A stretch of 58,995 nucleotides of DNA. It comes from Gemmatimonadota bacterium. Lineage in GTDB: Bacteria > Gemmatimonadota > Gemmatimonadetes > JACCXV01 > JAHWKZ01. This document shows, one piece after another, positions 37,374-39,885 of the stretch. The position numbers and the translations under genes are program-made. The stretch is from NCBI GenBank assembly GCA_019347645.1, contig JAHWKZ010000001.1:1-58995 (forward strand). Reading direction: 5' to 3'. Below the pieces are notes generated by a model. It did not search any database. It had not been told where the DNA came from and saw only the letters and a list, made by a program, of their open reading frames with translations. The number at the start of each line of letters is the position of its first letter. Position 1 is the first letter of the stretch.

Positions 37374-38066
37374 TCAGCCGGAGGTCACGGGGGCCTCGGC
37401 GAGCGACCGCGCGCGCGCGACGGGGCGATGCCGGCGGAGCTCGTTGGCGTCGCCGGTCAGCAGCGTTGCGATGTCGGCCGACGCCATCACCAGGGCCGAG
37501 AGGCCGGCCCAGGCGCGCAGGATGTCGGGACCGGGAGCGATGAAGAGCACCAGGACGGCGGTGTGGGGAGCGACCCCCAGCCAGATCCTCCAGGCCGCGA
37601 CTCCGAGGCGCCCGAGCCGCGCCCTCCACGCCCGTCGCCGCCGGGATCCGACGATCGCCGCCGCGGCGATGAGGGGCGCCGCGACCGCCACGGTCGCGAC
37701 GGCGTAGACGATCGTGACCGGAAGCAGCGCCCACTCGGCCCACCCCCGCCCCACCGGGGCGCGTCCGCCGCCCCGTCCGTTCGCCCGATAGCGGGCCTTC
37801 TGCATCAGCTCGAAGCCGCGGAAGTGACGGACGAGGTAGTCCCGCGCGGCGTTGATCTCCTGGATCTTCCGCGTCGCCCGAGCGCGTTCCTCCACCGTCT
37901 CGAACCGGTCGGGATGGATGCGCCTGGCGCGCGCCCTGTGCGCCCGGTGGACGTCCTCGATCTCGATCGGCGGGAAGAGCCCGAGCGCGCGCAGCGAGTC
38001 GCGATAGCGGACCTCGTCGTACCGGCCGCGCCCGCCCGGCGGGAGCGGTCGGTCGAGCTGCTTCAT
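37374..38066 (-). CDS. membrane-anchored J-domain protein
   Basis: Inner ATG at 38066 (ATGA overlap with the AAA+ stop). J domain with HPD (ARRIHPDRFETVEERARATRKIQEINAARDYL), followed by 3-4 hydrophobic helices. Confidence 0.7.
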   Translation of the reverse strand: MKQLDRPLPPGGRGRYDEVRYRDSLRALGLFPPIEIEDVHRAHRARARRIHPDRFETVEERARATRKIQEINAARDYLVRHFRGFELMQKARYRANGRGGGRAPVGRGWAEWALLPVTIVYAVATVAVAAPLIAAAAIVGSRRRRAWRARLGRLGVAAWRIWLGVAPHTAVLVLFIAPGPDILRAWAGLSALVMASADIATLLTGDANELRRHRPVARARSLAEAPVTSG

Positions 38067-39532
38067 GGCTCGGCGGTCCCGGGGACGGCCGCCCCGGTCG
38101 GCGGAGCCGACGCGGGCGATGCCGACGCGGGCGGAGCCGACGCGGGCGGAGCCCCGCTCTCCGCGTCCCCGACCCCCTCCCCCGGCATGTCCAGGAAATA
38201 GGAGCGGCAGGCGCGGTCCAGCAGGCGGGTCGAGAGGATCGGCTCGACGTCGAGGTACCGGGCCTCGTCGCAGAGGTGGTCGAGCAGGTCGCGCGGGTGG
38301 CACGAACGGGCCGGGATGGACCGCCTCTCGTAGTATTCGCGCCAGATCCAGCGGACGGCGTCCGGCTCGAAGGCGATCTGCCGGGCGATGCATCCCCTGC
38401 GAAAGATCTGCAGGTACTGCTCGAACGTCGGGTCCGGGACGAGGATCTTGTAGTGGATCCGCCGCAGGAAGGCCTCGTCCACGAGCTCGAGCGGATCGAG
38501 GTTCGTGGCGAAGACGAGCAGACAATCGAAAGGCACCGGGAACTTGTGGCCGGTGTGCAACGTCAGGAAGTCGAGGCGCTTCTCGAGCGGCACGATCCAG
38601 CGGTTCAGCAGGTCCCGCGGTCGCACGATCTGCCGCCCGAAATCGTCGATGATCAGGACCCCGCCGTTGGCCTTCACCTGGAAGGGGGCCTGATAGATCT
38701 TCGTGTGCGGATCGTACTGGAGGTCGAGCTGATCGAGCGTCAGCTCTCCGCCGGTGAACACGACCGGCCGGCCGACGCGCGCGAAGCGCCGGTCGTAGGG
38801 AGTGGGCTTCGCGAGCCATTCGGGCTCCTCGTCCGCCGCGGCGGCCGGACCCACCTTGCGGTCCGGCAGCGAAGAGTGGTGGACCGGGTCGTGGACGACC
38901 ATCACGTGGCCGCCGATCTCGACCGCGTAGGGCACGTACAGCTCGCCGCCCATCATCCGCGCGATCGCCTCCGCCAGCGTGGTCTTCCCGTTCCCGCTGT
39001 CGCCGTAGAGGAACATCGACTTGGCCGAGTTCACCGCCGGCCCGATCTGCTCCAGGAAATCGGGATCGAGAACAAGGTGGCTGAAACCGGACTCGATCGC
39101 TTCCCGGTCGAGTCGGGCGTTGCGGATCGAGCCGGCGGCCACCCAGGCGCGGTACTTCTCGAGCGGGACCGGGGCCGGTCCCACGTACTGGCCCGCGGCC
39201 ATCGATTCGCGCGCCCGCTCGCGTCCCTTGGAGGTGAGGTCGAAGGTATAGCCGCCGCGGCCGTGACCCTTGGCGCCGCGGACCTCGAGCAGCATCCGCT
39301 GCTGGAGGTCCTGGAGCCGGTCGTCGAGGATCGAGAACGGGAGCCGGACGTCCTCGACGAGACGTTGCCCCGTCCGCGCGCCCCGGACGTAGAGGGTCTT
39401 GAGCACGAGCTCGGCGACCGTCTCGGCGGAGAGACCGCTCTCCGCCAGCGTCCCCGGCACCTTCGGCGCCTTCTCGGCCGCGAACTGCGGCCGCTGGTTC
39501 AGGCTGGAGCGGGGGCGCGCGTCCAGGGTCAC
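38063..39532 (-). CDS. AAA+ ATPase of unassigned family
   Basis: GTG at 39532 (GTGA overlap with the DUF192 stop). Walker A [12 protein letters not shown], Walker B [11 protein letters not shown], sensor-like [16 protein letters not shown]. C-terminal [17 protein letters not shown] repeat tail. Confidence 0.75.
   Translation of the reverse strand: [489 protein letters not shown]
38091..38150 (-). repeat. in-frame 15-bp tandem repeat (about 4 units) in the AAA+ C-terminal tail
   Basis: gccgacgcgggcgat / gccgacgcgggcgga / gccgacgcgggcgga at 38106-38150, preceded by a diverged unit at 38091-38105. Encodes SAPPA-type pentapeptides. Confidence 0.7.
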
Positions 39533-39885
39533 GCCGCCTCCGACCACGACAGGTGGTCCCCGAGCAGCGTGCCCGTGGAACCGAGCGTGCCTTCGGGCAG
39601 CTCGAGCGCGAACCGGGCCTCCCCGTGCCACTTCGAACGCGCTCCGGGCGCCAGTCCGCGGTAGAGGGCCACGACCTCCCGCTCCTCGTCCATGAACGCG
39701 ACGTCGATCGGATACCGCATGCCGTACATGTGGACCCCCCGACAGGGGACCATCAACAGACCCTGCCCCTCCTCCAGTGGGCCGTGACCGATCAGTCCCC
39801 GGAGTCGCGGCCACCACCAGTCGGCCAGGTCCACCTGCTCCCCCAGGACCGACCCCCGGGTCTCGTTGACGACTTTCAAAGCCAT
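39529..39885 (-). CDS. DUF192 (COG1430) family protein
   Basis: Inner ATG at 39885: [33 protein letters not shown]...[25 protein letters not shown]. The ATG shares one base with the tadC TGA. Confidence 0.65.

What the first reader, a model, noticed from the sequence alone, without database searches (positions are those of the whole stretch)
37374..39885. DUF192 - unclassified AAA+ ATPase - membrane-tethered J-domain protein appended to the Tad operon by overlapping codons
Immediately after tadC there are three genes. The first is a DUF192 protein whose ATG shares a base with the tadC TGA. The second is a 489-aa AAA+ protein (Walker A [9 protein letters not shown], Walker B [15 protein letters not shown], FLRRI) with a roughly 190-aa N-terminal domain that I cannot assign. 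The third is a 230-aa protein with a bona fide J domain (HPD in RRIHPDRF) followed by 3-4 transmembrane helices. A J domain fixed at the inner membrane would recruit DnaK/Hsp70 to that site. Paired with a dedicated AAA+ protein, this looks like an assembly, disassembly or quality-control module. Tad systems normally have a single motor ATPase (CpaF/TadA), so a second co-translated ATPase plus an Hsp70 recruiter is not part of the textbook Tad inventory.
Basis: partly seen in the sequence, partly recalled or inferred. Interest (0 to 1): 0.72.

Follow-up and report, generated by a model that had tools for sequence, protein, structure and literature searches.

The report
Extra ATPase module on Tad operon
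A soil bacterium's pilus-building (Tad) operon carries three extra co-translated genes: a small protein of unknown function, an uncharacterised AAA+ ATPase and a membrane-bound chaperone recruiter. The first two are conserved Tad add-ons in two bacterial phyla, and what they do is still untested.

Summary
On the minus strand, tadC is followed by DUF192 (39529-39885), a 489-aa AAA+ gene (38063-39532) and a 230-aa J-domain membrane protein (37374-38066). All three are joined by overlapping stop and start codons.

The unassigned N-domain of the ATPase is a MarR-type winged helix. The ATPase core is closest in fold to LonB, RuvB, BchI and sigma-54-activator ATPases. No Pfam, NCBIfam or solved-structure family covers it.

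The three genes have different conservation:
- **DUF192 plus AAA+:** in 32 of 32 informative Gemmatimonadota and Acidobacteriota loci the AAA+ gene sits directly after tadC. DUF192 was detected beside it in 27 of them.
- **AAA+ alone:** in Chloroflexia it abuts an orphan CpaF-like ATPase. In Anaerolineae and Myxococcota, including M. xanthus, it lies away from Tad genes.
- **J-protein:** it is confined to one Gemmatimonadota sublineage. It always sits between the AAA+ gene and a TonB-like/ExbB/ExbD/kinase block.

My best reading (confidence about 0.4) is an ATP-driven accessory remodelling or regulatory module for the Tad machine, with the Hsp70 recruiter as a lineage-specific add-on. The function rests on gene context only. 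I call it a new variant of a known system, of moderate to good interest.

The parts
39885..40814 (-). tadC, the second T2SSF platform protein and last canonical Tad gene
   Evidence: Pfam T2SSF 5.5e-20. The last base of its TGA is the first base of the next ATG.
39529..39885 (-). DUF192 protein, 118 aa, with no signal peptide visible
   Evidence: PF02643 at 57.2 bits against a cut-off of 27. A profile of Tad-linked relatives hits PDB 3pjy (4e-13) and 3m7a (1e-8), both of unknown function.
38063..39532 (-). wH-AAA+ ATPase, 489 aa: MarR-like winged helix, conserved YVGPAPVP linker, AAA+ core and variable Ala/Pro tail
   Evidence: GTGA overlap with the DUF192 stop. 100% identical to NCBI protein P0001. 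Motifs invariant in 29 homologues. AF2 model pLDDT 72.5. Foldseek best hits 8p49, LonB, RuvB, BchI.
39188..39445 (-). N-terminal MarR-type winged-helix domain of the ATPase (about residues 30-115)
   Evidence: Separate AF2 model pLDDT 79.8. Foldseek top 50 are all MarR-family regulators, best 3g3z at E 5e-5, TM about 0.5.
38183..39085 (-). AAA+ core and lid (about residues 150-450): Walker A 177-185, beta-rich insert 197-290, Walker B 293-301 (DD), hairpin 320-334 before the sensor-1 strand, sensor-1 N344, Arg 357/358, sensor-2 R414
   Evidence: Alignment invariants, secondary structure of the model, Foldseek.
37374..38066 (-). Membrane J-domain protein, 230 aa: cytoplasmic J domain (about residues 22-85, HPD 51-53) followed by 2-4 hydrophobic segments (110-205)
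   Evidence: ATGA overlap with the AAA+ stop. DnaJ Pfam hit in 8 of 8 homologues. HPD invariant in 18 sequences. Hydropathy.
36431..37345 (-). TonB/TolA-like protein, 28 nt downstream of the J-protein gene
   Evidence: Weak TonB_C (6e-4, below cut-off) and TolA hits. Conserved after the J-protein in L086, L088, L089, L091, L092, L094 and L096.
35849..36427 (-). ExbB/TolQ-type proton channel subunit
   Evidence: Pfam MotA_ExbB 1.9e-16.
35402..35818 (-). ExbD/TolR
   Evidence: Pfam ExbD 3.5e-30.
31110..35405 (-). 1431-aa sensor histidine kinase (HAMP-PAS-HisKA-HATPase at the C-terminus). Its start overlaps the ExbD stop.
   Evidence: Conserved in L086.
41813..43354 (-). CpaF/TadA motor ATPase
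   Evidence: Pfam T2SSE 2.7e-66.
40827..41813 (-). tadB (T2SSF)
   Evidence: Pfam T2SSF 3.6e-18.
43351..49320 (-). Upstream Tad genes: TadZ/CpaE (REC plus ParA-like), TadG-like, secretin, CpaB/RcpC, TadE, prepilin peptidase, Flp pilin
   Evidence: Pfam hits.

Best explanation
DUF192 and the wH-AAA+ ATPase form a conserved cytoplasmic accessory module of the Tad pilus machine in Gemmatimonadota and Acidobacteriota.

The ATPase has every catalytic motif of an active AAA+ enzyme. By analogy with its closest structural neighbour, a hexamer, it most likely forms a ring. Conserved hairpins lie before Walker B (around the invariant Tyr280) and before the sensor-1 strand. I infer that it uses ATP to remodel or switch a protein client at the inner-membrane platform. 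The best candidate client is the CpaF-type motor or its TadB/TadC/TadZ partners. The MarR-like winged helix and the invariant YVGPAPVP linker would act as the docking or input element. DUF192 would act as a small adaptor or client.

In this particular lineage a membrane J-protein is translationally coupled to the ATPase. Its HPD motif would recruit DnaK-ATP to the membrane and trigger its hydrolysis, adding Hsp70 holdase or unfoldase capacity at the same site.

**Shown:** gene structure, motifs, folds, operon coupling and phylogenetic distribution.

**Inferred:** ring formation, the identity of the client, the adaptor role of DUF192, and any cooperation with DnaK.
For: 1. Stop and start codons overlap along tadC, DUF192, AAA+ and the J-protein. 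No terminator-like site follows on that strand.
2. In the 80 best GTDB loci, 17 of 17 Gemmatimonadota, 14 of 14 Acidobacteriota and 1 unclassified locus with enough flank have TadC less than 3 kb upstream on the same strand. DUF192 was found in 27 of these 32.
3. DUF192 lies before the ATPase gene in Gemmatimonadota and after it in 7 Acidobacteriota loci. Both genes stay attached to tadC, so the linkage survives rearrangement.
4. In L015, TadE and TadG-like genes follow the ATPase gene. The module is therefore embedded in a Tad locus, not just appended.
5. There is an independent link to the same ATPase class. In 7 Chloroflexota loci the AAA+ gene is directly followed by an orphan CpaF-like T2SSE ATPase without TadB/C. 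In the tree five of these form one clade and two lie elsewhere.
6. DUF192 was reported independently as the penultimate gene of tad operons in Bacillota (PMC12786226).
7. Walker A, Walker B, sensor-1, the paired arginines and sensor-2 are invariant. The closest fold match is a hexameric AAA+ ring (8p49, cryo-EM).
8. The J domain has an invariant HPD motif and is always adjacent to the ATPase gene.
Against: - The family is not Tad-exclusive. 21 Chloroflexota and 5 Myxococcota loci with full flanks have no Tad platform genes within 10 kb (two Myxococcaceae loci carry only a CpaF-like hit about 5 kb downstream). M. xanthus pairs the gene with Fic.
- The Tad-linked sequences form one side of the tree, and that split follows taxonomy. 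The 32 loci may therefore represent only one or two evolutionary events.
- No fusion between DUF192 and the ATPase was found. The fusions seen are with FHA and HDOD signalling domains.
- The N-domain is a fold typical of DNA-binding repressors.
- The best-studied Tad systems (Aggregatibacter, Caulobacter, Pseudomonas) work with CpaF/TadA alone (PMC12019362 abstract; otherwise my own knowledge).
- There is no interaction, expression or phenotype data.
Confidence: 0.4

Rival explanations
1. The wH-AAA+ protein is a signal-controlled DNA-binding regulator, a nucleotide-dependent switch built like an inverted enhancer-binding protein. It would control transcription of tad or other envelope genes rather than touch the machine. 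DUF192 would be a co-regulator or be unrelated.
For: - The N-domain is a MarR-type winged helix. The top 50 Foldseek hits are all MarR-family proteins, including DNA complexes.
- An invariant Arg92 sits in the wing.
- Relatives carry N-terminal FHA or HDOD input domains, as bacterial signalling regulators do.
- The AAA+ core resembles those of NtrX and VpsR, and some homologues hit Sigma54_activat weakly.
- The gene neighbours are very diverse outside two phyla, as expected for a regulator.
Against: - The helix at the recognition position (residues 66-78, [13 protein letters not shown]) is acidic and has no conserved basic residues.
- No Pfam MarR or HTH model matches.
- There is no GAFTGA loop.
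- Identity of 45-50% across phyla over 430 residues is unusually high for a transcription factor.
- A separate sigma-54-type activator already sits upstream of flp.
Confidence: 0.2
2. The ATPase, with or without DUF192, has a general housekeeping role unrelated to pili, for example membrane or lipid homeostasis or protein quality control. It would merely share a transcript with tad genes in two phyla.
For: - Orthologues with the same architecture and motifs occur without Tad neighbours in Myxococcota and Anaerolineae.
- Recurrent neighbours are lipid or membrane enzymes: GDPD, DAG kinase, PEMT/ICMT-like, and patatin nearby.
- The family is large (792 clusters at 50% identity with E<=1e-30) and evolves slowly.
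Against: - The position directly after tadC is kept in 32 of 32 loci across two phyla despite reshuffling of DUF192.
- The gene lies inside the Tad locus in L015.
- There is independent adjacency to a CpaF-like ATPase in Chloroflexia.
- Stop and start codons overlap.
Confidence: 0.2
3. The J-domain membrane protein belongs functionally to the downstream TonB-like/ExbB/ExbD/kinase block. It would recruit DnaK for that proton-motive-force machine or its signalling, not for the AAA+ ATPase.
For: - The J-protein and the Ton-like block co-occur whenever both flanks can be read. The window, L086, L088 and 5 of 5 metagenomic loci with downstream flank have the TonB-like gene.
- ExbB and ExbD are absent from all 32 other Tad-AAA+ loci.
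- In those loci the third gene is an unrelated membrane protein.
Against: - The J-protein start overlaps the AAA+ stop by 4 nt in the window, L086 and L088. In contrast, 28 to 340 nt separate it from the TonB-like gene.
- The AAA+ gene is directly upstream in 9 of 9 metagenomic loci with upstream flank.
Confidence: 0.35
4. The module is an anti-phage defence system, with an IetA/IteA-like ATPase, inserted next to the pilus operon.
For: The best NCBIfam and PADLOC hits for the ATPase are IteA/IetA (E 1.7e-6 and 3.9e-8).
Against: - These hits cover only about 30 residues around the P-loop, and scores are far below cut-offs (27.5 bits against 510).
- DUF192 and the J-protein have no PADLOC hits.
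- The strict syntenic position, vertical phylogeny and high conservation are unlike defence islands.
Confidence: 0.02

Closest known systems
Tad/Flp (type IVc) pilus systems of Aggregatibacter, Caulobacter and Pseudomonas
   Same: The window has the full canonical set: Flp pilin, prepilin peptidase, TadE, CpaB/RcpC, secretin, TadG-like, TadZ/CpaE, CpaF/TadA, TadB and TadC.
   Different: The model systems use one bifunctional ATPase (PMC12019362 abstract). To my knowledge they have no AAA+, DUF192 or J-protein genes in the operon. Here three to eight extra genes continue the transcript.
Archaeal LonB ATPase domain and the uncharacterised P. furiosus hexamer Q8U0N8 (PDB 8p49)
   Same: These are the best structural matches to the AAA+ core (E 1e-9 to 1e-7). 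8p49 is a hexameric ring with a flexible N-terminal domain.
   Different: There is no protease domain and no membrane anchor. Sequence similarity to any PDB chain is limited to the P-loop. 8p49 itself has no known function.
Sigma-54 enhancer-binding proteins, MoxR and Mg-chelatase BchI ATPases
   Same: The region from '[22 protein letters not shown]' to '[30 protein letters not shown]' parallels their motif before Walker B and the hairpin before sensor-1 (my reading). Foldseek hits BchI, NtrX and VpsR. Relatives carry FHA input domains.
   Different: There is no GAFTGA loop and no C-terminal HTH. No VWA partner genes were found nearby. Pfam models for these families match only weakly around the P-loop. 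Walker B is DD rather than DE.
MarR-family winged-helix regulators
   Same: The fold of residues about 30-115 matches (Foldseek E 5e-5, TM about 0.5).
   Different: The domain is fused to an AAA+ core instead of forming a stand-alone dimer. No sequence-profile match exists, and the 'recognition' helix is acidic.
DjlA and other membrane-anchored type III J-proteins
   Same: A lone J domain with HPD is held at the cytoplasmic face of the inner membrane. By family knowledge it is expected to stimulate DnaK ATPase locally.
   Different: DjlA has an N-terminal anchor and a C-terminal J domain. Here the J domain is N-terminal, followed by 2-4 hydrophobic segments. There is no sequence relation outside the J domain, and the family has only 18 homologues plus 11 metagenomic loci.
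DUF192 / UPF0127 structural-genomics proteins (PDB 3pjy, 3m7a)
   Same: Clear homology (profile E 4e-13 and 1e-8). A DUF192 gene was also noted at the 3' end of Bacillota tad operons (PMC12786226).
   Different: 3pjy is annotated as a signal-peptide protein. The Tad-linked form here has no visible signal peptide and is paired with an ATPase.

Membership tests
Tad/Flp pilus locus | Flp pilin, A24 prepilin peptidase, CpaB/RcpC, secretin, TadZ/CpaE, CpaF/TadA and two T2SSF platform proteins in one cluster | tested here: met
   Pfam hits for all of them between 39885 and 49320.
DUF192 (PF02643) | Score above the Pfam gathering threshold over the whole domain | tested here: met
   57.2 bits against 27, profile positions 2-96 of 96. 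Homology to 3pjy and 3m7a.
AAA+ superfamily | Walker A GxxxxGK[ST], Walker B hhhhD[DE], sensor-1 polar residue, arginine finger, sensor-2 Arg, and the alpha-beta-alpha plus helical-lid fold | tested here: met
   G177-T184, D296/D297, N344, R357/R358 and R414 are invariant in 29 sequences. Foldseek gives 511 PDB hits at E<=0.001, and all of the top 50 listed are AAA+ ATPases.
Classic AAA (PF00004: FtsH, Vps4, Cdc48) | Full-length match to the PF00004 domain | tested here: not met
   Only profile positions 1-27 of 131 (the P-loop) match, at 22.2 bits against 21.2. The model shows an extra hairpin before sensor-1.
Sigma-54 enhancer-binding proteins | GAFTGA loop and a full Sigma54_activat domain | tested here: not met
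   No GAFTGA in the sequence. The Sigma54_activat hit covers positions 12-44 of 168, and no single stretch passes on its own.
Lon / LonB proteases | AAA+ module fused to an S16 Ser-Lys protease domain (LonB also has a membrane insert) | tested here: not met
   The protein ends about 40 residues after the lid. There is no Lon_C hit, and the insert at 197-290 is not hydrophobic. Fold similarity is limited to the ATPase domain.
MoxR AAA+ | AAA_3/AAA_5 domain match and a VWA-domain partner gene | tested here: not met
   No AAA_3 hit. No VWA gene lies adjacent in the window or in the conserved contexts.
PilT/PilU-type retraction ATPases (T2SSE) | T2SSE (PF00437) domain | tested here: not met
   No T2SSE hit for the 489-aa protein. 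CpaF is the only T2SSE protein in the operon.
MarR family | Winged helix-turn-helix fold; match to a MarR sequence profile; DNA binding as a dimer | tested here: inconclusive
   Fold met. Sequence profile not met: no Pfam MarR hit. DNA binding is not testable here.
J-domain proteins | Helix II, HPD loop and helix III; DnaJ Pfam match | tested here: met
   HPD invariant in 18 sequences. The region aligns to E. coli DnaJ residues 3-57. The window protein is below the gathering score (22.1 against 27.8), but 8 of 8 family members hit DnaJ, best E 3.3e-7.
J-domain proteins | Stimulation of Hsp70 (DnaK) ATPase activity | not testable with these tools
   Needs biochemistry.
Anti-phage IetA/IteA ATPases | Full-length match above the NCBIfam cut-off, and a partner IetS protease | tested here: not met
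   27.5 bits against a cut-off of 510, over the P-loop only.

The most novel reading that the evidence does not exclude
The wH-AAA+ ATPase, with DUF192, is a previously unrecognised second motor or remodeller of Tad-type pili. It would be encoded in cis in Gemmatimonadota and Acidobacteriota, sit next to an orphan CpaF in Chloroflexia, and act in trans in Myxococcota and Anaerolineae. It would drive a step that CpaF alone does not, such as platform or CpaF hexamer turnover, pilin extraction or recycling, or a switch between extension and retraction. In one lineage it would be wired to DnaK through a dedicated membrane J-protein.
Probability: 0.25. Interest if true: 0.8.

Novelty: new variant of a known kind. 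Interest (0 to 1): 0.58.

Why it matters
Tad pili are taken to run on a single bifunctional ATPase. How one motor handles assembly, retraction and quality control of the platform is still an open question.

A second ATPase of a different superfamily is conserved in the tad operons of two abundant soil phyla. It is also next to CpaF-like genes in a third phylum. That makes it a concrete, testable candidate for a missing accessory activity.

The same uncharacterised ATPase family has about 800 clusters at 50% identity and no Pfam or NCBIfam model. It has an orthologue in the genetically tractable Myxococcus xanthus, so its function could be tested directly.

The lineage-specific membrane J-protein would be an unusual case of Hsp70 being wired into a pilus or Ton-like envelope operon.

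Tried and rejected
- **Sequence searches of the ATPase.** Pfam, NCBIfam, PADLOC and PDB, with the single sequence and with a 29-sequence profile, matched only about 30-50 residues around the P-loop or the sensor-1 region. No family could be assigned.
- **Fusion test for a DUF192-ATPase link.** Ten homologues with long N-terminal extensions carried FHA, HDOD or nothing recognisable, never DUF192.
- **Literature.** Searches on DUF192/UPF0127/COG1430, Tad plus AAA+ plus DnaJ, Tad in Acidobacteria or Gemmatimonadetes, and 8P49 found no functional study. They gave only one genomic remark on DUF192 in Bacillota tad operons and the structure report for 8p49.
- **Wrong reading frame.** I first scanned 48028-48687 and found nothing. 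The real gene is TadE at 48054-48503.
- **ORF calling.** My first longest-ORF caller produced antisense artefacts in high-GC Myxococcota loci. I replaced it with GC3 filtering and six-frame HMM searches and with the precomputed gene calls.
- **Defence-system reading.** Considered and rejected.
- **Lon-like protease or sigma-54 activator.** Both rejected, because their defining features were tested and not met.

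
Full report
**What is in the window**

The window is a 58,995-bp contig of a Gemmatimonadota MAG with about 70% GC. Third-position GC content and Pfam scans show a long run of minus-strand genes forming a complete Tad/Flp pilus locus. 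In order these are Flp pilin, prepilin peptidase, TadE (48054-48503), CpaB/RcpC, secretin, a TadG-like protein, TadZ/CpaE with a receiver domain, CpaF/TadA (41813-43354), TadB and TadC (39885-40814).

**The observation**

- The tadC stop TGA shares its last base (39885) with the ATG of a 118-aa DUF192 protein, which scores 57.2 bits on PF02643.
- The DUF192 stop overlaps, as GTGA, the GTG start (39532) of a 489-aa protein. A GGAGG lies 8 nt upstream. This start reproduces the deposited protein at 100% identity and coverage.
- That gene's stop overlaps, as ATGA, the start (38066) of a 230-aa protein.
- The quoted motifs are all present. Their key residues are invariant in an alignment of 29 homologues: G177-T184, D296/D297, N344, R357/R358 and R414.
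- The 230-aa protein aligns to the J domain of E. coli DnaJ, with HPD at 51-53. Its own Pfam score is below threshold (22.1 bits against 27.8). However, 8 of 8 relatives hit DnaJ, and HPD is invariant in 18 sequences.
- Hydropathy gives a 33-residue hydrophobic stretch, a second clear segment and a weaker third. An arginine-rich loop lies between them.

The transcript very probably continues into a TonB/TolA-like gene, ExbB, ExbD and a 1431-aa histidine kinase. The gaps are 28, 3 and 30 nt, followed by a 4-nt overlap. No terminator-like site lies on that strand before about 29600.

**What the ATPase is**

No Pfam, NCBIfam, PADLOC or PDB sequence model covers more than the P-loop or a short stretch around sensor-1.

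An AlphaFold2 model built on 29 homologues has a mean pLDDT of 72.5. It shows three parts:
- an N-terminal helix-helix-helix-strand-strand unit;
- a conserved linker, with an invariant Y116-G118-A120-P121-P123 core in the YVGPAPVP segment;
- an AAA+ core with a beta-rich insertion between Walker A and Walker B (197-290) and a beta-hairpin (320-334) just before the sensor-1 strand.

Foldseek against the PDB puts it nearest to the uncharacterised hexameric P. furiosus protein Q8U0N8 (8p49, E 1e-9). Next come the ATPase domain of archaeal LonB, then RuvB, CbbX, BchI, HslU, ClpB/C, NtrX and VpsR. The 8p49 paper reports only a hexamer with a flexible N-domain and no function.

By my reading, the stretch '[22 protein letters not shown]...[30 protein letters not shown]' parallels the equivalent region of enhancer-binding, MoxR and chelatase ATPases. 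The defining features of those families (GAFTGA loop, VWA partner, protease domain) are absent.

It is a MarR-type winged helix: all top 50 hits are MarR-family proteins, the best at E 5e-5 and TM about 0.5. Its wing carries an invariant arginine, but the helix at the recognition position is acidic.

**How widespread it is**

The family is large and slowly evolving. There are 3515 clusters at 50% identity with E<=0.001 and 792 with E<=1e-30. Identity between phyla is 45-50% over about 430 residues. Some members carry N-terminal FHA or HDOD domains, and none carries DUF192.

**Genomic context, the key test**

A scan of one genome per GTDB species returned at least 598 loci, and the best 80 were kept. 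I searched their flanks with the window's Tad proteins and with a DUF192 profile.

| Group | Loci with enough flank | Context of the AAA+ gene |
|---|---|---|
| Gemmatimonadota | 17 | TadC within 3 kb upstream, same strand: 17 of 17 |
| Acidobacteriota | 14 | TadC within 3 kb upstream, same strand: 14 of 14 |
| Unclassified | 1 | TadC upstream: 1 of 1 |
| Chloroflexota | 28 | CpaF-like ATPase directly downstream in 7; no Tad genes within 10 kb in 21 |
| Myxococcota | 5 | No Tad platform genes within 10 kb; 2 loci have a CpaF-like hit about 5 kb downstream |

- DUF192 was found in 27 of the 32 Tad-linked loci. It lies before the ATPase gene in Gemmatimonadota and after it in seven Acidobacteriota loci.
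- Two further Gemmatimonadota contigs with precomputed gene calls show the same order.
- In L015, TadE and TadG-like genes follow the ATPase gene.
- In the seven CpaF-linked Chloroflexota loci, TPR and DUF6812 genes lie upstream in the loci examined (L065, L079), and no TadB or TadC follows.
- In Anaerolineae the usual downstream neighbours are a GDPD phosphodiesterase or a DAG-kinase-like gene.
- In Myxococcus xanthus the orthologue lies between an aminotransferase gene and a Fic gene, and the Fic start overlaps its stop.
- A neighbour-joining tree places the Tad-linked Gemmatimonadota and Acidobacteriota sequences on one side of the midpoint root, and Chloroflexota plus Myxococcota on the other. 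The Tad linkage therefore follows phylogeny and may reflect few events.

**The J-protein is a different matter**

Only 18 homologues were found among 5.8 billion clusters, and 11 more loci turned up in metagenomes.

- In the two Gemmatimonadota loci aligned (L001, L003), the gene after the ATPase is an unrelated bitopic membrane protein at about 20% identity. The same kind of gene follows the ATPase gene in other Gemmatimonadales loci.
- In Acidobacteriota that position holds a PEMT/ICMT-like or a SPOR-domain membrane protein.
- Wherever the J-protein occurs and the flanks exist, the order is the same: Tad genes, DUF192, AAA+, J-protein, TonB-like, ExbB, ExbD, giant kinase.
  - This holds in the window, L086 and L088.
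  - 9 of 9 metagenomic loci with upstream flank have the ATPase gene directly upstream.
  - 5 of 5 with downstream flank have the TonB-like gene.
- ExbB and ExbD are absent from the other 32 Tad-ATPase loci.

The J-protein therefore arrived as part of a lineage-specific block. It may serve the Ton-like module, although its start codon stays overlapped with the ATPase stop codon.

**DUF192**

A profile of the Tad-linked proteins matches the structural-genomics entries 3pjy and 3m7a, both of unknown function. The only relevant literature is a 2025 genome paper. It notes a DUF192 gene as the penultimate gene of tad operons in Bulleidia and Helcococcus. This shows independently that DUF192 recurs at the 3' end of Tad operons, there without the ATPase.

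**Interpretation**

The data support a conserved two-gene accessory, DUF192 plus the wH-AAA+ ATPase, for Tad loci in two phyla. They also show a separate association of the ATPase with CpaF-type ATPases in Chloroflexia.

I therefore favour, at a confidence of about 0.4, an ATP-driven remodelling or switching factor acting on the CpaF/platform complex. DnaK recruitment would be a lineage-specific addition.

The rivals remain open:
- a DNA-binding or regulatory ATPase, supported by the MarR fold and the FHA and HDOD fusions;
- a housekeeping enzyme that merely shares the transcript;
- for the J-protein alone, a role with the Ton-like block.

A defence-system reading is rejected. Nothing here demonstrates activity, oligomeric state, a client or a phenotype.

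**Novelty and score**

All the parts belong to known superfamilies, and the locus is a known kind of machine. No described Tad system that I know of includes this ATPase, and no functional study turned up in five literature searches. I rate it a new variant of a known kind, with interest 0.58.

Noticed in passing
window 30086-37345 (minus strand): The Tad transcript appears to continue into a TonB/TolA-like gene, ExbB, ExbD, a 1431-aa histidine kinase and a receiver-only protein. The first ~1000 residues of the kinase have no Pfam domain. This block is conserved in the J-protein sublineage only (L086, L088, L089, L094, L096).
   Followed up: partly
window 49931-51860 (minus strand): A sigma-54-type activator (AAA+ plus Fis-type HTH, with no receiver domain) and a TPR protein lie just upstream of the flp pilin gene. 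This suggests sigma-54 control of the operon.
   Followed up: no
L084 10001-12300 (Myxococcus xanthus CP068048): The M. xanthus orthologue of the wH-AAA+ ATPase is followed by a Fic-domain gene whose start overlaps its stop. A patatin and a second AAA gene lie just upstream, and there are no Tad genes within 10 kb.
   Followed up: partly
L046, L049, L051, L054, L066, L067, L068, L075, L078, L083; L023, L030, L033, L034: Outside the Tad context the gene after the ATPase is repeatedly a lipid or membrane enzyme. In Anaerolineae it is a GDPD phosphodiesterase and/or a DAG-kinase-like gene. In Acidobacteriota it is a PEMT/ICMT-like methyltransferase.
   Followed up: partly
L063, L065, L079 (also L041, L057, L064, L070), about 8200-12800: In Chloroflexia the ATPase gene is directly followed by an orphan CpaF-like T2SSE ATPase with no TadB or TadC after it. 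A TPR protein and a DUF6812 protein precede it in L065 (TPR also in L079).
   Followed up: partly
proteins P0189, P0198, P0225: Some family members carry N-terminal FHA or HDOD signalling domains in front of the winged helix.
   Followed up: partly
L086 17545-20666: A second, partial Tad-like cluster (TadE, RcpC, TadG-like, TadZ-like) starts right after the giant kinase in a relative. In the window the corresponding place holds dnaX-ybaB-recR instead.
   Followed up: no
L015 11337-13735: TadE-like and two TadG-like genes follow the ATPase gene and the bitopic membrane gene. The ATPase gene is therefore internal to a Tad locus there.
   Followed up: partly
window 38063-38180 (C-terminal about 40 residues of the ATPase): This is a low-complexity Ala/Pro/Ser tail ([18 protein letters not shown]). 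It is variable in length and absent in most homologues.
   Followed up: no
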